A stretch of DNA of 38,690 bases from a virus: UHGV virus genome UHGV-0117250, one strand, 5' to 3'. Within the stretch, counting starts at the first letter, position 1, and every line of letters begins with the position of its first letter. The notes beneath the pieces were generated by a model. It saw only the letters and a list, made by a program, of their open reading frames with translations, was not told where the DNA came from and ran no database searches. Positions 3,569 to 34,773 of this stretch are shown piece by piece. The position numbers and the translations under genes were made by a program.

Positions 3569-3647
3569 GTTACCGTTAAGGTAATAATTATGCGTATCTG
3601 GTTTGATGTCAATAGATATGAGTTAAAAAAATTACCTGTTAGGTAAT
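3569..3647. promoter_or_regulatory. leftward operator region (OL-like): two 17-bp dyad sites
   Basis: gTTACC-GTTAA-GGTAAt at 3569..3585 and the perfect dyad ATTACC-TGTTA-GGTAAT at 3631..3647, between the repressor terminator and the first leftward gene. Confidence 0.5.
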
Positions 3648-3703: not shown

Positions 3704-4288
3704 TTATTGTTTGTTTTTTTCGTTCTGGTTGATGACAAATTCAATGTAACTTTCGATCTTTGCTTTCTCGGTTTCGGGTAACAAAGCGTAGCGCGAGCGG
3801 TCATAGTTGATAGTCGCAGGGTCGTGCGGGTGAATCAGTAATTCATAGCCGTGACGCCCGAATGCGGATGCAACATTCTCCAGGGTGGAAATGGAAACGC
3901 TGACCTCATTGTTTAACAGGCGGCTGATTGTCACCTGGGCGACGCCGGATGCGCGGTGAAGTTTTCCCTGCGTTGAAAGGTCGCGGCTTTCGCTCATCCA
4001 GCGTTCCAGGTTGTGAGCCGCCAGCTGACCAATGTCGCTTGGTCCGACAGGCTGAAAACCTTCCTGAGAAAGCGAGCGATCGATATCAAGCCAGTTACGG
4101 GGTTTATTGGCGGCAGCTTCAATTTTTCGCGCAACCTGGTCGCCGATAACCTTCTTGCCAAGAGCCCAGCGGTTTACCAGATTTGCCTGAGTTCCAAGTT
4201 TTTCTGCCATCCGCGTCTGAACACCATTGAATTCACGGTCGATCAAGTCGTTGAGATTTTGCCTGCGGACGTCCTGGATACTTTTCAT
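3704..4288 (-). CDS. prophage repressor, double-HTH (XRE-type), no peptidase S24 domain
   Basis: 194 aa; two HTH-like segments (around QTRMAEKLGTQANLVNRW and VAQVTISRLLNNEVSVSISTLENVA); divergent from a cro-like gene with dyad operators between them; no Ser/Lys autocleavage-type C-terminus visible. Confidence 0.7.
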   Translation of the reverse strand: MKSIQDVRRQNLNDLIDREFNGVQTRMAEKLGTQANLVNRWALGKKVIGDQVARKIEAAANKPRNWLDIDRSLSQEGFQPVGPSDIGQLAAHNLERWMSESRDLSTQGKLHRASGVAQVTISRLLNNEVSVSISTLENVASAFGRHGYELLIHPHDPATINYDRSRYALLPETEKAKIESYIEFVINQNEKNKQ

Positions 4289-4342: not shown

Positions 4343-4407
4343 ATTACCCAACAGGTAAATGCACCCCATAGGTAACTATCCTTGATTTTTGTTACCTTAT
4401 GGGTGAA
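4343..4407. promoter_or_regulatory. rightward/maintenance operator region (OR-like): three dyad sites
   Basis: ATTACC-CAACA-GGTAAA (4343..4359), GCACC-CCATA-GGTAA (4361..4375) and GTTACC-TTATG-GGTGAA (4391..4407) in the 155-bp divergent region between the repressor ATG (4288) and the cro-like ATG (4443). Confidence 0.55.
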
Positions 4408-4442: not shown

Positions 4443-4673
4443 ATGAGCGATAACGGACATTTCGATTTCAAAAAGCACTGGCTTGCACTTACTCCGGATG
4501 AGCGTGAAGCCTTCGCACAGGAAGCCGGAACGACGAGTCACTATATCCAGACTCACTTAACAGGTAAGCGCAAAATGCCAGGTAAAGTATTGATGAATGG
4601 GCTTTTTAAAGCCTGTAAAACAAGACAATGGCTGCGCTCAAAAGCAGAACTGGCATACTTCTTCTACTCATGA
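4443..4673 (+). CDS. Cro-like small HTH regulator
   Basis: 76 aa, divergent from the repressor across the operator region; HTH-like segment TTSHYIQTHLTG. Confidence 0.55.
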   Translation: MSDNGHFDFKKHWLALTPDEREAFAQEAGTTSHYIQTHLTGKRKMPGKVLMNGLFKACKTRQWLRSKAELAYFFYS

Positions 4674-4719: not shown

Positions 4720-4728
4720 TATCTATTC

Positions 4729-4744
4729 GCACCTTTAAGGTAAT
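4729..4744. promoter_or_regulatory. dyad-motif site upstream of next early gene
   Basis: GCACC-TTTAA-GGTAAT immediately after the terminator; same motif family as the OL/OR sites. Confidence 0.35.
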
Positions 4745-6673: not shown

Positions 6674-6752
6674 ATTACCCATAAGGTAATAAAATATTCT
6701 AAACTCTATTGATTTCGTGTCTTATGTGGTTTTTAATTACCTTAGAGGTAAA
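6674..6752. promoter_or_regulatory. two dyad-motif sites upstream of DUF1064 operon
   Basis: ATTACC-CATAA-GGTAAT (6674..6690) and ATTACC-TTAGA-GGTAAA (6736..6752); the second ends 3 nt before the ATG at 6755. Confidence 0.4.
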
Positions 6753-10211: not shown

Positions 10212-10228
10212 ATTACCACAACGGTAAC
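10212..10228. promoter_or_regulatory. dyad-motif site upstream of terminase genes
   Basis: ATTACC-ACAAC-GGTAAC, 17 nt upstream of the terminase small-subunit start. Confidence 0.35.
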
Positions 10229-10244
10229 AATTACCAGGGTGGTT

Positions 10245-10841
10245 ATGATGCCTGCTGAACCTAAAACATATAAACGCAAATCAACGCAATTTAAGCCACT
10301 AACCGCAATGCAGGAGGCTTATTGCCAGTCATACATCAAAACGCCTGAAAACCAGACTCAGGCAGCGATTAACGCAGGATTCTCCCCAAATACAGCGGCA
10401 GTTAAAGCCAGTGTCATGATGCGCGATGAACGCATTCAAAAACGGATTGCCGAGTTGATGGAGGAGCGCAACAAACGAATGCGCGTCAGTGCCGATTACG
10501 TTCTCATGCGCCTGGTGGAGATCGACCAGATGGACGTGATCGACATCCTCAACGACGATGGGAGCCTTAAGCCAATCCGCGAGTGGCCGAAAATCTGGCG
10601 CACTACGCTTAGTGGCTTTGATCTGTCATCGACCATCATGAACATGAACGAGGATTCGATAGAGACAATCCTCAAAAAAATTAAATGGCCTGACAAGGTG
10701 AAGAACCTCGAACTGATTGGTAAGCACGTCGACGTCAACGCGTTCAAAGAACGCCTGGATGTTAATGTGAATGTGACAATTGCTGATCGCATAGCGGCAG
10801 CCAGGAAGCGACTCAAAGAACGTCAGGATGGTAATCAGTGA
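10245..10841 (+). CDS. terminase small subunit
   Basis: ATG at 10245 within ORF 10167..10841; resembles small-terminase (Terminase_2-type) proteins (...QAAINAGFSPNTAAVKASVMMRDERIQKRIAEL...); directly precedes and overlaps the large subunit. Confidence 0.65.
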   Translation: MMPAEPKTYKRKSTQFKPLTAMQEAYCQSYIKTPENQTQAAINAGFSPNTAAVKASVMMRDERIQKRIAELMEERNKRMRVSADYVLMRLVEIDQMDVIDILNDDGSLKPIREWPKIWRTTLSGFDLSSTIMNMNEDSIETILKKIKWPDKVKNLELIGKHVDVNAFKERLDVNVNVTIADRIAAARKRLKERQDGNQ

Positions 10842-12313
10842 CAGATACAGCGTTATCTCCTGAAGAGCAGTTGATCGAGGATATTGCAGGGTTCACTCAC
10901 GATCCGCTTGGCTATGCCCTCTATGCGTTCCCGTGGGGGGAAGAGGGGACTGAACTGGCACATGCCACCGGCCCACGTCAGTGGCAGGCTGATGCGTTCC
11001 GAGAGATACGTGATCACCTGCAGAATCCAGAGACGCGCTATCAGCCGCTTATGCTGGCACGCGCTTCTGGTCACGGTATTGGTAAATCCGCATTCATCTC
11101 AATGCTGATCAACTGGGGCATGTCCACTTGCGAGGATTGTAAGGTCGTGGTGACCGCCAACACCGACAACCAGCTACGAACGAAGACCTGGCCGGAAATT
11201 ATCAAGTGGTCGAACCTTGCTATCACGAAAGACTGGTTTACCTGTACCGCTACCGCGATGTACAGCAATGATCCTGGGCACGACAAGCGGTGGCGGGCTG
11301 ACGCAATCCCCTGGTCTGAGCACAACACTGAGGCATTCGCCGGACTACACAACGAGCGCAAACGCATCATCGTGGTATTCGATGAAGCGTCGAACATTGC
11401 GGATCTGGTGTGGGAAGTTGCCGAAGGTGCGCTAACGGACGAAGACACTGAGATTATCTGGGTGGCGTTCGGAAACCCGACGCGTAACACCGGGCGTTTC
11501 CGCGAATGTTTCCGCAAATATAAACACCGCTGGAAAACTGCGCAGATTGACAGCCGGACGGTGGAAGGCACTAACAAACAGCAGTTGCAGAAATGGGTTG
11601 ATGACTACGGGGAAGACAGCGACTTCGTTAAAATCCGTGTGCGCGGCATATTCCCGGATGCATCTGAATTGCAGTTTATCCCTACCGGACTTACTGACGA
11701 GGCAATGAAACGGGTGGTCACCGCTGCGCAGGTTGCACATGCTCCGGTGATAATCGGCGTTGACCCGGCATACTCAGGCGTTGATGACGCTGTGATATAC
11801 CTGCGGCAGGGGCTGCACAGTAAGGTGCTGTGGACTGGCAACAAGACCACTGACGATCTGATTATGGCGAAGCGTATCGCTGACTTTGAAGACCAGTACC
11901 AGGCTGACGCAGTGTTCATCGACTTCGGTTACGGAACTGGTCTGAAGTCAATCGGTGACGGCTGGGGTCGTACATGGCAACTTGTTCCGTTCGGTGGCGC
12001 GTCTACTGACCCGCAGATGCTCAACAAGCGTGGGGAGATGTTCAACTCATGTAAGACATGGCTGAGGCTGGGCGGCATGCTGGATGACCAGGAAACTGCA
12101 GACGACCTGTCGGCGGCAGAGTACAAAGTTCGAGTGGACGGTAAAATCGTTATCGAACCGAAGGAAGATATCAAAGAGCGACTTGGGCGTTCGCCGGGTA
12201 AAGGCGATGCGCTGCTGCTGACGTTTGCTTTCCCGGTGTCGAAGCGCCTGCGACTTCCCGGGCAGCAGAACCAGCAAGGCAAGGCGCTTACCGAGTACGA
12301 TCCATATGCTTAG
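10838..12313 (+). CDS. terminase large subunit
   Basis: 491 aa; Walker-A-like ASGHGIGKS; acidic nuclease-type C-terminal region; position and size typical. Confidence 0.8.
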   Translation: MTDTALSPEEQLIEDIAGFTHDPLGYALYAFPWGEEGTELAHATGPRQWQADAFREIRDHLQNPETRYQPLMLARASGHGIGKSAFISMLINWGMSTCEDCKVVVTANTDNQLRTKTWPEIIKWSNLAITKDWFTCTATAMYSNDPGHDKRWRADAIPWSEHNTEAFAGLHNERKRIIVVFDEASNIADLVWEVAEGALTDEDTEIIWVAFGNPTRNTGRFRECFRKYKHRWKTAQIDSRTVEGTNKQQLQKWVDDYGEDSDFVKIRVRGIFPDASELQFIPTGLTDEAMKRVVTAAQVAHAPVIIGVDPAYSGVDDAVIYLRQGLHSKVLWTGNKTTDDLIMAKRIADFEDQYQADAVFIDFGYGTGLKSIGDGWGRTWQLVPFGGASTDPQMLNKRGEMFNSCKTWLRLGGMLDDQETADDLSAAEYKVRVDGKIVIEPKEDIKERLGRSPGKGDALLLTFAFPVSKRLRLPGQQNQQGKALTEYDPYA

Positions 12314-13128
12314 TCTTTATTTTTATCCTCGAAACCTGATAATCCAGATAGAACACCAAAGTTATTAAAAACGTCTGGCTTACCAGATTTTAATCCGGAT
12401 AAGTTGTGTTGCTCCAAAAAGTTGCTAATTGTTTGGCCGTTGCCAAGTGCAAGACTTTTTATTTGAGATTTTTCAGGGTATTTGAGTTTGTATTCGTCGA
12501 AATCATTTTGGAGGGTCTTATATGCCTCATTCATTCTTCCAAGAGTTTCCGATATCTCTTTTAATGAATGATTTAGAGCTGCTAACTGAGCACTGGCGGA
12601 TCTCAATTCGTCATCTTTAGCTTTCAACTCAGCAGTCAATTCCCCCATACTATTCTTTGATCGAATAATCTCTTCTTTCATCTCTTGGATGTCTTTTTCC
12701 GCGCCAGTCTTAACTTTGTCGTATGTAACATCTTTTTTAGCCAATAACCTCTGCAGTCTGGTTTCACGCTGGATTTTTCTTGCCTTCAGGTGATTTTCGA
12801 TTGAGTCATTATTATCAAGAGGCTTTGCTTGCCATACGTTAATGATATTGTTTACCCATGGTAATAGGCAGCAGATAGCAATTACAGATAAGCATGGATA
12901 AAACATAACAGTTTTCCATGTGCTGTTATCTGAGATATATGAAATTTTATCTATTATGTTTGATTTGCTAAAAAATAGATAAAGAATTGATTTCCAGTTG
13001 AAGGCGCACCAGGACATAACAAAAGCACCAAGCACAGGGTTTTTGGCTCGATTCACGGCAGTATTGGCAGTAGATAAAAACAGCTCTTTAAACGATTCAA
13101 ACATGCTAATTACCTTGAAGTTTTTCAT
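12310..13128 (-). CDS. moron: membrane-anchored coiled-coil protein (candidate superinfection-exclusion/abortive-infection factor)
   Basis: Antisense to the structural operon, markedly AT-rich; two hydrophobic segments (PVLGAFVMSWCAFNW; VMFYPCLSVIAICCLLPW) then a long coiled-coil-like C-terminal half; stop codon overlaps the terminase stop. ATG 13128 preferred; an alternative ATG at 13104 has an AAGGT SD. Confidence 0.55.
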   Translation of the reverse strand: MKNFKVISMFESFKELFLSTANTAVNRAKNPVLGAFVMSWCAFNWKSILYLFFSKSNIIDKISYISDNSTWKTVMFYPCLSVIAICCLLPWVNNIINVWQAKPLDNNDSIENHLKARKIQRETRLQRLLAKKDVTYDKVKTGAEKDIQEMKEEIIRSKNSMGELTAELKAKDDELRSASAQLAALNHSLKEISETLGRMNEAYKTLQNDFDEYKLKYPEKSQIKSLALGNGQTISNFLEQHNLSGLKSGKPDVFNNFGVLSGLSGFEDKNKD

Positions 13129-13131
13129 GAT

Positions 13132-13148
13132 TATACCTTTAAGGTAAT
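13132..13148. promoter_or_regulatory. dyad-motif site overlapping moron translation start
   Basis: TATACC-TTTAA-GGTAAT located 4 nt upstream of the moron ATG on the coding strand. Confidence 0.35.
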
Positions 13149-13188: not shown

Positions 13189-13350
13189 AACTGGAAGCAA
13201 TGAGTTATGCCTTCCGTGGCTGTACGTGTTTACAGCATGAAGTCATCGCAATGGCGTCCTGCTGTAAAAAGGGCGGTGATAGTCCTTCAAGGGAAACCAT
13301 CACCGCCAAGCACCTGGAACTTCTGGCATCACGGTCCTTAGGCGTGATTC

Positions 13351-13427
13351 TGGCGTGGCATGCAGGATTCGAACCTGCGACCAACCGCTTAGAAGGCGGT
13401 TGCTCTGTCCAACTGAGCTAATGCCAC
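13351..13427 (-). tRNA. tRNA-Arg (anticodon UCU)
   Basis: Minus-strand 77-nt cloverleaf: 7-bp acceptor stem GTGGCAT/ATGCCAC, D-arm GCTC..GAGC, anticodon stem ACCGC/GCGGT with loop CTTCTAA (anticodon TCT), T-arm GCAGG-TTCGAAT-CCTGC, encoded CCA end. Confidence 0.85.
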
Positions 13428-13748: not shown

Positions 13749-13765
13749 GTTACCTGAAAGGTAAT
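13749..13765. promoter_or_regulatory. dyad-motif site upstream of virion operon
   Basis: GTTACC-TGAAA-GGTAAT; shares the 15-mer ACCTGAAAGGTAATA with the site at 30359..30375. Confidence 0.35.
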
Positions 13766-30002: not shown

Positions 30003-30028
30003 AGGCCGCTCTAGCGGCCTTTTCTTTA
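30003..30028. terminator. bidirectional intrinsic terminator between convergent genes
   Basis: AGGCCGC-TCTA-GCGGCCT followed by TTTCTTT on the plus strand; the stop of the minus-strand gene lies in the T-run. Confidence 0.55.
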
Positions 30029-30283
30029 TGTGGTTTGTTTTCGTAATTGTTCGGCACAATAGTCGAGATGTGTTTGCAGATCCCGCATAGACATCTGTGA
30101 GCTGGTGACGTAGTTAATCAGTGCAGTCAGTTCGGCAAGTGGGCCATCGACATTAAATCCATCCTTATCGAGCTCCCGGAGTAATTTCATCAAGTGCGAT
30201 CCCTCCACCAGTGATCTGACGCCTCCCGGCGTGTGAATCCTTTCGGTAAATCCGTCTTCCAGTGGATAGTGATACTGCTGCAT
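30026..30283 (-). CDS. LexA-regulated small protein (candidate antirepressor)
   Basis: 85 aa from ATG 30283 with GGAG SD (track start 30301 is TTG); a near-consensus LexA box lies about 20 bp upstream. Confidence 0.5.
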   Translation of the reverse strand: MQQYHYPLEDGFTERIHTPGGVRSLVEGSHLMKLLRELDKDGFNVDGPLAELTALINYVTSSQMSMRDLQTHLDYCAEQLRKQTT

Positions 30284-30301
30284 CTTATCTTCTCCATGCA
30301 A

Positions 30302-30323
30302 TAACTGTATAAATATACAGTAT
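30302..30323. promoter_or_regulatory. LexA (SOS) box
   Basis: AACTGTATAAATATACAGTA: CTGT-N8-ACAG with an AT-rich spacer, a near-perfect match to the E. coli LexA consensus TACTGTATATATATACAGTA. Confidence 0.7.
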
Positions 30324-30358
30324 CAAATAATTTATTTGCTATCCAGCACGTTTTGCGA

Positions 30359-30375
30359 ATCACCTGAAAGGTAAT
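30359..30375. promoter_or_regulatory. dyad-motif site between LexA-box gene and tailspike
   Basis: TCACC-TGAAA-GGTAAT; shares the 15-mer ACCTGAAAGGTAATA with the site at 13749..13765. Confidence 0.35.
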
Positions 30376-30478
30376 ATCTGTTCGTATTTATGGGTTGTCT
30401 ATCCATATATGGTTTTTCAGGTAATAGAATAACCGGATATGCGGCGCAACGGGTGCTGCGACTATCTGGAGATTTAAC

Positions 30479-32870: not shown

Positions 32871-34730
32871 ATGGACTTCAGGAAGGATATCAATGGAGTC
32901 AGGGCTATAGCAGTTCTTGCTGTAGTCCTGTTCCACTTCAACAGAGGATGGGTCCCGAGTGGATTTGTTGGCGTAGATGTATTCTTTGTAATTTCTGGTT
33001 TTTTGATGACGTCAATAATATTTGGCGGATTAGAAGGAAATAAATTTTCTCTGTGGGGCTTTTATAAAGCACGAGCCAGAAGGATAGTGCCTGCGCTTGC
33101 CGTTATGCTAATTTGCGTAATGGTATACGGATGGTACAACATGTACACTCCTGAATTTAAGACATTGGCGAAGCACGCTGCGTCAAGCCTTCTATTTGTT
33201 TCAAATATCGTCTATTGGAAGGAGTCAAGCTACTTTGCTCCTGGTGCAGAAGAGAAGTGGTTACTTCATACTTGGTCTCTATCTGTAGAATGGCAATTCT
33301 ATATTATATATCCTTTAGCCATTTATATTATCAGAAAGGCTTTCAGTTTAAAGGTATCTAGGATATTAATTCTGATTGCAGGCCTATTAAGTTTAGCACT
33401 TAGCATTTATGCATCTAGGATTTTAGTTAGCTCATCATATTTCTTGCTTCCAACAAGGGCATGGGAGATGATTGCTGGCGGCGTGGTTTATCTTTTCCCG
33501 ACATCAATATTTAAACGAAAACCTTTCCCATATATCGGGATTGCTACCATATTAGTATCCTGCTTTATTTTTAGCGAGGAATCGTACTGGCCTAGCTACA
33601 ATGCGCTGCTGCCTATCATCGGCACGATGATCATATTGTGGTCGTGTTCTGATAACATTATCTTAGATTCATCTTTTGCGCAAAAGATTGGGTTGTATTC
33701 ATATTCAATTTATTTGTGGCACTGGCCGATCTATCTATATATATATAATACATATGGTGGTGTTTCTATATTAACAACGCTCATTGGAATTGTTGCGTCA
33801 GTGGCGATGGGTATGTTGTCATTTAAATATATAGAAAGTGTTTTCAAAAGTAGAGGCGGCGTTAAAAAGGAGTTTCTGTACTTTGCATCATTAGCTTTAG
33901 CTGTTGGTATATATATTTCTAATGGCGCTAACACTGATATGCGAAGTATCACAAAAACTACCGGTAATGAAACTGTGGTGCATTACGATGGATATCGGTT
34001 TGATAATAATGGGATGTGGGATAAATGTAACAGCAGTGAAAAACTGGATCATATCGATAAATCATGTGTCGATACTGATAAAAGGGGAGGTGTCTTCTTA
34101 TGGGGAGACTCTCACGCGGGAGCACTTTCTTTAGGGATAAGATCACTTCTAAAAGATGGCGTTCCATTCTATCAACTTGCTGCTTCAAGTTGTAAACCGA
34201 GTCTCCATAAATTCCCTGGAGTTATAAGTGCCACAATTGGATGTAATCTATCCAATGAAAAAGCCATTGAAGATATAAATATTGTTAAACCTGATGTTGT
34301 GGTATTAGCTCAGAGATTCCAGCATGAAGAAACAAACTGGCAAAGCATCGCTGAGAAAATACACTCACTGGGTGTTAAGAAAGTTATAGTCCTTGGTCCT
34401 GTTCCTCAGTGGAAAGGGAGCCTGCCGCTAATTGTTGCGAAAAACTACAATCCTAATGATATTTACATTGATGAACGATTTTTGGATAAACAGATTGTCG
34501 CGACAAATAACAAAATGAAGACGATATCAAAAGACAATGAAGGTTATGATTTTGTCGACATACTTGATCACTTATGCACACATGAAGGTTCAGAACTGAA
34601 GTGTAGGGCAAGGGTAGATAGTGGCTTTACGCTTATGTCTATGGATTACGGTCACCCTACTGATGAAGGGTCACTGTTCATCGGCAAACACATAATTAAA
34701 AGCCACCTCCCAACAAGCATAACCAAGTAA
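32871..34730 (+). CDS. O-antigen acetyltransferase (acyltransferase-3 membrane domain + SGNH domain)
   Basis: 619 aa; multi-TM N-terminal half typical of acyltransferase family 3 (OafA/Oac-like); C-terminal domain with GDSH-type motif (FLWGDSHAG); AT-rich; directly downstream of the tailspike. Confidence 0.75.
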   Translation: MDFRKDINGVRAIAVLAVVLFHFNRGWVPSGFVGVDVFFVISGFLMTSIIFGGLEGNKFSLWGFYKARARRIVPALAVMLICVMVYGWYNMYTPEFKTLAKHAASSLLFVSNIVYWKESSYFAPGAEEKWLLHTWSLSVEWQFYIIYPLAIYIIRKAFSLKVSRILILIAGLLSLALSIYASRILVSSSYFLLPTRAWEMIAGGVVYLFPTSIFKRKPFPYIGIATILVSCFIFSEESYWPSYNALLPIIGTMIILWSCSDNIILDSSFAQKIGLYSYSIYLWHWPIYLYIYNTYGGVSILTTLIGIVASVAMGMLSFKYIESVFKSRGGVKKEFLYFASLALAVGIYISNGANTDMRSITKTTGNETVVHYDGYRFDNNGMWDKCNSSEKLDHIDKSCVDTDKRGGVFLWGDSHAGALSLGIRSLLKDGVPFYQLAASSCKPSLHKFPGVISATIGCNLSNEKAIEDINIVKPDVVVLAQRFQHEETNWQSIAEKIHSLGVKKVIVLGPVPQWKGSLPLIVAKNYNPNDIYIDERFLDKQIVATNNKMKTISKDNEGYDFVDILDHLCTHEGSELKCRARVDSGFTLMSMDYGHPTDEGSLFIGKHIIKSHLPTSITK

Positions 34731-34732
34731 CA

Positions 34733-34758
34733 GAAGCCCACTCCGGTGGGCTTTTTAA
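34733..34758 (+). terminator. rho-independent terminator after acetyltransferase
   Basis: AGCCCAC-TCCG-GTGGGCT followed by TTTTTAAT. Confidence 0.6.
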
Positions 34759-34773
34759 TACCCGTAAGGTAAT
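34757..34773. promoter_or_regulatory. dyad-motif site upstream of lysis cassette
   Basis: ATACC-CGTAA-GGTAAT immediately after the terminator. Confidence 0.35.

What the first reader, a model, noticed from the sequence alone, without database searches (positions are those of the whole stretch)
30026..30323. Near-consensus LexA box driving a small antisense gene: candidate SOS-triggered antirepressor
The repressor has two HTH domains and no recognisable S24 autocleavage domain, so RecA-stimulated self-cleavage is unlikely. A near-perfect LexA box (CTGT-N8-ACAG, AT-rich spacer) sits about 20 bp upstream of an 85-aa gene with a strong SD, placed antisense between the ejection-protein genes and the tailspike. 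In other prophages with non-cleavable repressors (the Gifsy and coliphage 186 paradigm), induction works through a LexA-controlled antirepressor encoded away from the immunity region. This small gene is a candidate for that role.
Basis: partly seen in the sequence, partly recalled or inferred. Interest (0 to 1): 0.65.

Follow-up and report, generated by a model that had tools for sequence, protein, structure and literature searches.

The report
Known LexA-controlled phage antirepressor (Ant)

Summary
An 85-aa gene (30026..30283, minus strand) has a GGAG Shine-Dalgarno. A LexA box, AACTGTATAAATATACAGTA (30303..30322), matches the 20-nt consensus at 18 of 20 positions and ends 21 nt upstream of the ATG. 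It is the only such site in the window (0 of 100 shuffles).

The window is a phiV10/epsilon15-like podophage (genus Uetakevirus). The small protein is 87-88% identical to Ant of Salmonella phage SPC32H (GenBank 'ant: anti-repressor protein'; PDB 5D50 chain E, E=1.8e-47). The window's 194-aa repressor (3704..4288, minus strand) matches SPC32H Rep over its full length (5D50 chain A, 42% identity). It has HTH domains and no S24 peptidase domain.

Gene position, Shine-Dalgarno and LexA half-sites are conserved in E. coli, Salmonella and Enterobacter relatives. Klebsiella relatives have ATGT instead of CTGT.

The mechanism is therefore the published one. DNA damage cleaves LexA, ant is expressed, and Ant binds the non-cleavable Rep and breaks up its DNA-binding tetramer, which induces the prophage.

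Verdict: interpretation supported, already known. One residual point: the gene is still labelled 'hypothetical protein' in phiV10-type phages and in about 10% of complete E. coli genomes.

The parts
30026..30283 (-). ant: 85-aa antirepressor gene, ortholog of SPC32H Ant
   Evidence: 88% identity to SPC32H ant by tblastn. PDB 5D50_E 'Anti-repressor protein', E=1.8e-47 over residues 2-85. phrog_450, E=9e-48. No Pfam or NCBIfam family.
30292..30295 (-). Shine-Dalgarno GGAG, 8 nt upstream of the ATG
   Evidence: Read directly in the sequence. Invariant in all 9 aligned relatives.
30303..30322 (.). LexA (SOS) box AACTGTATAAATATACAGTA; core CTGT-N8-ACAG at 30305..30320
   Evidence: 18 of 20 matches to the consensus; the only site in the window at up to 3 mismatches; 0 of 100 shuffles give a hit. 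CTGT and ACAG are invariant in E. coli, Salmonella and Enterobacter relatives while the spacer varies; Klebsiella relatives have ATGT.
30317..30345 (-). Candidate ant promoter (inferred): -35 TGGATA (30345..30340), 17-bp spacer, -10 TACTGT (30322..30317) overlapping the left half of the LexA box
   Evidence: My own scan. This is the only -35/-10 pair kept in the same register in all six non-Klebsiella sequences scanned (window, phiV10, SPC32H, epsilon15, Tyrion, BUCT554). The -35 lies in the invariant block TGCTGGATAG. It is a weak match (7 of 12), and the stricter tool scan did not call it.
30003..30020 (+). G+C-rich hairpin AGGCCGC-TCTA-GCGGCCT followed by TTTCTTT: plus-strand terminator ending the structural operon, 5 nt beyond the ant stop codon
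   Evidence: Terminator scan. The equivalent feature is annotated as a terminator in phiV10 and epsilon15. On the ant strand there is no T-run after the hairpin, so its role in ending the ant transcript is uncertain.
30359..30375 (.). 17-bp palindrome ATTACC-N5-GGTGAT between the ant promoter region and the tailspike gene; probable Rep operator
   Evidence: The motif gives 31 strand-matches against 4.1 expected in the window. The equivalent site in epsilon15 is annotated protein_bind 'repressor; lysogeny'. It is conserved in all 9 relatives.
3704..4288 (-). rep: 194-aa non-cleavable repressor, the presumed target of Ant
   Evidence: PDB 5D50_A 'Repressor', E=4e-42 over the full length; 5D4Z C-terminal domain, E=4e-20. 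42% identity to SPC32H Rep. 100% identical to the phiV10 repressor. HTH_3 hit and no S24 hit.
4343..4407 (.). Two copies of the ATTACC-N5-GGTAAT-type palindrome in the rep-cro intergenic region (4343..4359 and 4391..4407); probable operators
4443..4673 (+). Divergent 76-aa Cro-like regulator
   Evidence: phrog_35 'transcriptional repressor', E=5.6e-13.

Best explanation
The window is a phiV10-type (epsilon15-like, genus Uetakevirus) temperate podophage of E. coli. The gene at 30026..30283 (minus strand) is its ant gene. In the lysogen, host LexA binds the near-consensus SOS box at 30303..30322, which overlaps the likely -10 and start region of the ant promoter, and keeps ant silent. DNA damage activates RecA and LexA cleaves itself, so ant is transcribed. 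Ant, a tetramer in SPC32H, then binds the prophage repressor Rep (3704..4288). Rep has HTH domains but no S24 autoprotease, so it cannot be removed by RecA directly. Ant binding breaks the DNA-binding Rep tetramer into dimers, the lytic promoters are derepressed, and the prophage is induced.

Shown here: homology of both proteins to the solved SPC32H pair, synteny, the quality and conservation of the LexA box, and the absence of an S24 domain.

Inferred from the SPC32H literature and not tested for this phage: LexA binding, Ant-Rep binding, and the induction phenotype.
For: - Ant is 87-88% identical to SPC32H Ant, with identical gene order and orientation.
- Rep is homologous over its full length to SPC32H Rep in PDB 5D50/5D4Z, has no S24 domain, and is 100% identical to the phiV10 repressor.
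- The LexA box matches the consensus at 18 of 20 positions and is unique in the window. Its half-sites are kept in six E. coli, Salmonella and Enterobacter phages while spacer and flanks diverge.
- Rep and Ant co-occur in largely the same records: 35 records with Ant, 37 with Rep.
- Literature: LexA self-cleavage leads to Ant, which inhibits the repressor (PMC7380047). The Ant tetramer binds two Rep dimers and breaks the tetramer (PMC9638917). The C-terminal domain of Rep mediates both tetramerisation and Ant binding (PMC9986798).
- A phiV10-type lysogen (ZX5, with the identical Rep) is inducible by mitomycin C: 10^9 against 10^7 PFU/mL (PMC9782041).
- The window has no Bro-N type antirepressor that could do the job instead.
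Against: - Nothing has been tested for this phage.
- The window's Rep is only 42% identical to SPC32H Rep (C-terminal Ant-binding region 45%), so conservation of the Ant-Rep interface is assumed, not shown.
- The promoter hexamers are weak and were assigned only by conservation.
- A probable Rep operator lies 37 bp upstream of the LexA box, so control may not be by LexA alone.
- The primary papers (Kim and Ryu 2013; Kim et al. 2016) are not in the held library. What I say about their experiments rests on secondary citations, the GenBank and PDB records, and my own recollection.
Confidence: 0.88

Rival explanations
1. The gene is an Ant homolog, but in the phiV10 lineage it no longer acts on the resident Rep, which belongs to a different immunity type. 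It might act in trans on other prophages' repressors, or be a remnant, with induction of this prophage depending on another route.
For: Rep is only 42% identical between the window and SPC32H while Ant is 87% identical. Many phiV10-type phages carry an additional Bro-N antirepressor next to ant. That protein, not the small Ant, is the one shown by overexpression to reduce lysogeny in ZX5.
Against: The window has no Bro-N gene, yet it keeps ant, its Shine-Dalgarno and its LexA box intact. ant is at least 96% conserved in all phiV10-type phages carrying this exact Rep and occurs in 529 of 5426 complete E. coli genomes, which argues for purifying selection with this Rep. The residues invariant in Rep cluster in the C-terminal region reported to bind Ant.
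Confidence: 0.07
2. The palindrome is not a working LexA site. ant would be controlled by the phage's own repressor through the ATTACC-N5-GGTAAT palindrome, or expressed constitutively at a low level.
For: A probable Rep operator lies in the same intergenic region. No strong sigma-70 promoter was called by the tool scan. Klebsiella relatives have a degenerate left half-site, ATGT.
Against: The site matches the consensus at 18 of 20 positions with all eight core bases correct, is unique in 38.7 kb, sits at a fixed distance (21 nt) from the ATG, and has invariant half-sites in six phages from three host genera. Review literature attributes control of the SPC32H-type system to LexA.
Confidence: 0.03
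3. Induction works as in lambda: Rep cleaves itself with RecA, and the small gene is irrelevant to induction.
For: None was found in the sequence. This is only the general lambda precedent.
Against: There is no Peptidase_S24 match even at E<=10. Rep aligns end to end with the solved SPC32H Rep, whose C-terminal part is an HTH plus tetramerisation domain.
Confidence: 0.02

Closest known systems
Rep/Ant/LexA antirepression switch of Salmonella phage SPC32H (Kim and Ryu 2013, J Virol 87:11775; Kim et al. 2016, PNAS 113:E2480; PDB 5D50, 5D4Z)
   Same: Same phage genus. Ant is 87-88% identical, with the same length to within 1 aa. The gene occupies the same position and orientation between the large virion protein plus 46-aa membrane ORF and the tailspike. 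Both have a LexA box at the same distance from the ATG (TACTGTATgTTTATACAGT in SPC32H). The Rep homolog has the same two-domain layout and no S24 domain.
   Different: The host is E. coli rather than Salmonella. Rep is of a different immunity type (42% identity). The tailspike and O-antigen acetyltransferase modules differ. There is no experimental work on the small Ant in this lineage.
Gifsy-1/2/3 antirepressors (GfoA, GftA, GfhA) and Fels-2 / coliphage 186 Tum
   Same: Same logic: a small antirepressor gene under a LexA box, encoded away from the immunity region, inactivates a non-cleavable repressor by binding it (PMC3121763; PMC7380047).
   Different: My searches found no sequence relationship to these proteins: Ant matches only phrog_450, phrog_15539, phrog_1760 and phrog_17980, and has no Pfam family. 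The phage types differ (lambdoid siphoviruses and P2-like myoviruses), and so do the repressor folds.
Bro-N family antirepressors of the same genus (phiV10 p23, ZX5 ORF4, Tyrion gp20)
   Same: They are encoded immediately downstream of ant on the same strand in many relatives. Their C-terminal ~40-50 residues resemble Ant (tblastn E=8e-4; phrog_1760 'anti-repressor' positions 177-225 match Ant 27-75). ZX5 ORF4 overexpression lowers lysogeny.
   Different: They are larger (about 190-230 aa) with a Bro-N domain, and are absent from the window and from SPC32H.
P22 Ant (immI region: mnt-arc-ant)
   Same: An antirepressor gene of a podophage lying just upstream of the tailspike gene (established knowledge; P22 Ant and its control by Mnt are mentioned in PMC7380047).
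   Different: P22 Ant is a large, unrelated protein controlled by Mnt and Arc rather than LexA. P22 c2 repressor is RecA-cleavable, and ant mutants remain SOS-inducible.

Membership tests
SPC32H-type Ant antirepressor | Sequence homology to SPC32H Ant over the full length | tested here: met
   phmmer against PDB 5D50_E gives E=1.8e-47 over residues 2-85. tblastn gives 88% identity; the alignment gives 87%.
SPC32H-type Ant antirepressor | LexA operator at the ant promoter | tested here: met
   The box matches the consensus at 18 of 20 positions, lies 21 nt upstream of the ATG, and is unique in the window. It aligns with the SPC32H box and is conserved in relatives. Actual LexA binding cannot be tested here.
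SPC32H-type Ant antirepressor | Cognate Rep-type repressor (N-terminal DNA-binding domain plus C-terminal HTH/tetramerisation domain, no S24 autoprotease) in the same genome | tested here: met
   Rep at 3704..4288 matches 5D50_A with E=4e-42 over residues 1-190. No S24 hit at E<=10.
SPC32H-type Ant antirepressor | Conserved genomic position: antisense, between the virion/ejection-type protein genes and the tailspike | tested here: met
   The order is the same in SPC32H, 65FD, epsilon15 and BUCT554. In phiV10 and Tyrion a Bro-N gene is added downstream of ant.
SPC32H-type Ant antirepressor | Physical binding of Ant to Rep with disassembly of the Rep tetramer, and SOS-dependent induction that requires ant | not testable with these tools
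   Known for SPC32H only. The window's Rep differs at 58% of positions, so this is inferred.
Tum / Gifsy-type antirepressors | Sequence homology to Tum, GfoA, GftA or GfhA | tested here: inconclusive
   Pfam, PHROG and NCBIfam scans of Ant returned no hit annotated as these proteins. I made no direct pairwise comparison. One review calls the Salmonella Ant proteins 'homologous to Tum', but my scans do not show this.
Lambda CI / LexA-like self-cleaving repressors (as an alternative for Rep) | C-terminal Peptidase_S24 domain with a Ser-Lys dyad | tested here: not met
   No S24 match at E<=10. The C-terminal part aligns to the 5D4Z HTH/tetramerisation domain.

The most novel reading that the evidence does not exclude
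Uetakevirus Ant may be a trans-acting, cross-immunity antirepressor. One highly conserved Ant type (84-87% identity between the E. coli and Salmonella phages) serves two Rep immunity types that share only 42% identity, presumably by recognising the small conserved C-terminal tetramerisation surface. If so, SOS induction of one such prophage, or superinfection, could induce heteroimmune relatives. The Bro-N antirepressors next to ant would then be fusions that reuse the same Rep-binding module.
Probability: 0.3. Interest if true: 0.35.

Novelty: already known. Interest (0 to 1): 0.15.

Why it matters
This adds no new biology. It does confirm that reading the sequence alone recovered a real regulatory circuit.

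The practical value lies in annotation. The ant ortholog is labelled 'hypothetical protein' in phiV10, TL-2011b, ZX5 and other E. coli phages. The ten E. coli genome hits I could see are labelled the same way, and the ant plus LexA-box region is present in 529 of 5426 complete E. coli genomes. Neither Pfam nor NCBIfam has a model for it.

The one experimental paper on a phiV10-type phage tested the neighbouring Bro-N protein as 'the' anti-repressor and did not mention the small LexA-controlled gene. Transferring the SPC32H annotation would explain how these common prophages, including those of O157 and other STEC strains, respond to DNA-damaging antibiotics.

Tried and rejected
- **Second CTGT-N8-ACAG at 13220..13235.** I rejected it as a LexA site. 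It has a G/C-containing spacer (ACGTGTTT) and non-consensus flanks, and it does not pass the 20-nt consensus search at up to 3 mismatches. It lies between the terminator after tRNA-Arg and another terminator, about 90 nt from the real ATG (13128) of the downstream gene.
- **Ant paralog in the window.** One search reported 2-3 matching places per record in several E. coli phages, so I looked for one here. None is present. In phiV10-type records an extra match of this kind can be explained by the Ant-like C-terminus of the Bro-N protein.
- **Bro-N antirepressor in the window.** None found.
- **Strong sigma-70 promoter for ant.** The tool scan found none at the box. The obvious TTGATA-17-TATTGC pair would place the transcription start after the conserved Shine-Dalgarno, and its -10 is not conserved, so I rejected it in favour of TGGATA-17-TACTGT. 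This remains an inference.
- **Primary papers.** J Virol 2013, PNAS 2016 and the epsilon15 genome paper are not held.
- **Searches not run.** I did not run the large protein-database, structure-prediction or metagenome searches. The answer was already decided by an 88%-identical solved structure.

Full report
**1. What is there**

On the minus strand, an ATG at 30283 opens an 85-codon frame that ends at TAA (30028..30026). A GGAG lies 8 nt upstream of the ATG (30295..30292). The palindrome CTGTATAAATATACAG occupies 30305..30320, leaving 21 nt between it and the ATG.

With its flanks, the site reads AACTGTATAAATATACAGTA. That is 18 of 20 matches to the E. coli SOS-box consensus TACTGTATATATATACAGTA, and all eight core bases are correct.

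The loose pattern CTGT-N8-ACAG is not significant on its own: 2 hits against 0.57 expected. The full consensus at up to 3 mismatches finds only this site in 38.7 kb, and none of 100 shuffles gives any hit.

The other loose hit, at 13220, is a chance match. It has a G/C-containing spacer and poor flanks, and it is sandwiched between two terminators downstream of a tRNA-Arg gene.

**2. What the window is**

The region is 93-99% identical to phiV10-type E. coli podophages and about 79% identical to Salmonella epsilon15/SPC32H-type phages, all of the genus Uetakevirus.

The small gene lies antisense between two plus-strand units. Upstream are an 824-aa virion structural protein and a 46-aa membrane ORF. 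Downstream is the tail-spike/fibre gene, which is followed by an AT3-SGNH O-antigen acetyltransferase.

**3. What the gene is**

The 85-aa protein is 88% identical to the product of SPC32H_020, deposited as 'ant: anti-repressor protein', which has the same position and orientation. It matches PDB 5D50 chain E ('Anti-repressor protein') with E=1.8e-47. It has no Pfam or NCBIfam family. Its PHROG family, phrog_450, is 'unknown function'. This explains why most records call it hypothetical.

The window's repressor (3704..4288, minus strand, 194 aa) sits divergent from a Cro-like gene at 4443..4673.
- It aligns end to end with SPC32H Rep, 5D50 chain A (E=4e-42, 42% identity).
- It is 100% identical to the phiV10 repressor.
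- It has an HTH_3 domain at residues 106-147, a weaker N-terminal HTH-like hit, and no S24 peptidase match even at E<=10.

Rep and Ant co-occur in largely the same Uetakevirus-type records.

**4. Conservation of the control region**

I aligned the ant-tailspike intergenic region from nine phages.
- The Shine-Dalgarno is invariant in all nine.
- The half-sites CTGT and ACAG are invariant in the six E. coli, Salmonella and Enterobacter phages, while the 8-nt spacer and the flanks vary. This is the pattern expected for a protein-binding site.
- The three Klebsiella phages have ATGT...ACAG.
- The box-to-ATG distance is 21 nt in the five non-Klebsiella phages where my scan picked the real start, and 20 nt in the Klebsiella phages. 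For BUCT554 the scan latched onto an upstream ATGC, so its printed value of 3 nt is an artefact.

The only -35/-10 pair kept in register in all six non-Klebsiella phages is TGGATA (30345..30340), a 17-bp spacer, then TACTGT (30322..30317). This places the -10 and the expected transcription start inside the LexA box. The pair is a weak promoter match, and I treat it as an inference.

**5. Mechanism**

By homology, this is the SPC32H switch.
- Review literature states that in these Salmonella prophages SOS-induced LexA self-cleavage leads to synthesis of an antirepressor that inhibits the lytic repressor by protein-protein interaction, rather than by repressor cleavage (PMC7380047, citing Kim and Ryu 2013).
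- Rep binds DNA as a tetramer. [quoted passage not shown]
- The C-terminal domain of Rep mediates both tetramerisation and Ant binding (PMC9986798).
- A lysogen of ZX5, which has the identical Rep, is inducible by mitomycin C (PMC9782041).

I could not read the primary papers. From memory, which I cannot verify here, Kim and Ryu showed LexA binding at the ant promoter, Ant-Rep binding, and that Rep is not cleaved.

**6. Caveats and what is slightly different**

- Ant is much better conserved than Rep between the E. coli and Salmonella lineages: 87% against 42%. By Rep region the identities are 54% for the N-terminal domain, 24% for the linker, 33% for the HTH_3 domain and 45% for the C-terminal region.
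- Binding of this Ant to this Rep is therefore inferred. The invariant Rep residues do cluster at the N-terminus and in the C-terminal stretch AFG..YE...I.YD...Y..LP..EK.KI.
- Many phiV10-type phages carry a Bro-N antirepressor just downstream of ant, and its C-terminus resembles Ant. That protein, not the small Ant, is what the ZX5 paper tested. The window has no such gene, so the small Ant is its only recognisable antirepressor.
- A 17-bp palindrome, ATTACC-N5-GGTAAT, annotated as a 'repressor' site in epsilon15, lies 37 bp upstream of the LexA box at 30359..30375. It recurs at about 14 mostly intergenic places, including the rep-cro region. The ant-tailspike intergenic region may therefore also be bound by Rep.

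**7. Verdict**

The system is already known as the SPC32H Rep/Ant/LexA switch, with a solved structure. Interest is low.

The useful by-product is an annotation transfer. The ant plus LexA-box region is present in 529 of 5426 complete E. coli genomes, and it is labelled 'hypothetical protein' in the hits shown.

Noticed in passing
window 3569-3585, 3631-3647, 4343-4359, 4391-4407, 4728-4744, 6674-6690, 6736-6752, 10212-10228, 10230-10246, 13132-13148, 13749-13765, 30359-30375, 34757-34773: The 17-bp palindrome ATTACC-N5-GGTAAT is strongly over-represented: 31 strand-matches at up to 2 mismatches against 4.1 expected. Almost all copies are intergenic and sit at the head of transcription units (early left, rep-cro, replication, terminase, portal, tailspike, lysis). 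The epsilon15 record annotates equivalent sites as 'repressor; lysogeny'. If these are Rep operators, Rep would repress many promoters directly rather than through a cascade.
   Followed up: partly
window 12310-13128 (-) and 13351-13427 (-): A minus-strand insert lies between the terminase and portal genes. It holds a tRNA-Arg(TCT) followed by a terminator, then a 272-aa gene (N-terminal hydrophobic segments plus a long coiled coil; phrog_4780, function unknown) with its own TATAAT promoter overlapped by the ATTACC palindrome. Only coiled-coil-level hits were found in PADLOC, Pfam and NCBIfam. It could be a lysogenic-conversion or exclusion gene.
   Followed up: partly
L010 3147-3731 (phiV10 p23); L005 973-1052 (Tyrion gp20): Many relatives carry a Bro-N 'anti-immunity/anti-repressor' gene downstream of ant on the same strand. 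Its C-terminal ~40 residues resemble the N-terminal half of Ant (tblastn E=8e-4), and phrog_1760 'anti-repressor' matches Ant 27-75. This suggests a shared Rep-binding module. The gene is absent from the window and from SPC32H.
   Followed up: partly
window 3704-4288 versus 30026-30283, compared with L002 and L015 (SPC32H): Ant is 87% identical between the window and SPC32H, but Rep is only 42% identical. One Ant type thus accompanies two Rep immunity types, which hints at cross-reactivity between heteroimmune phages.
   Followed up: partly
window 32871-34730 (+): A 619-aa AT3 (Acyl_transf_3) plus SGNH fused acyltransferase lies directly downstream of the tailspike. phiV10 has an O-acetyltransferase gene ('oac') among the features matched by this part of the window, so this is probably a serotype-converting function.
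   Followed up: no
window 30003-30020 (+): A strong plus-strand terminator lies between the structural operon and the tailspike gene, 5 nt from the ant stop codon. The tailspike must therefore have its own promoter in 30380..30470, or depend on read-through that would be antisense to ant.
   Followed up: no
L007, L008, L009 (Klebsiella relatives), ant upstream region: In the three Klebsiella Uetakevirus-type phages the left LexA half-site is ATGT instead of CTGT, and the TGCTGGATAG block is altered. LexA control may be weakened or lost in that branch.
   Followed up: no
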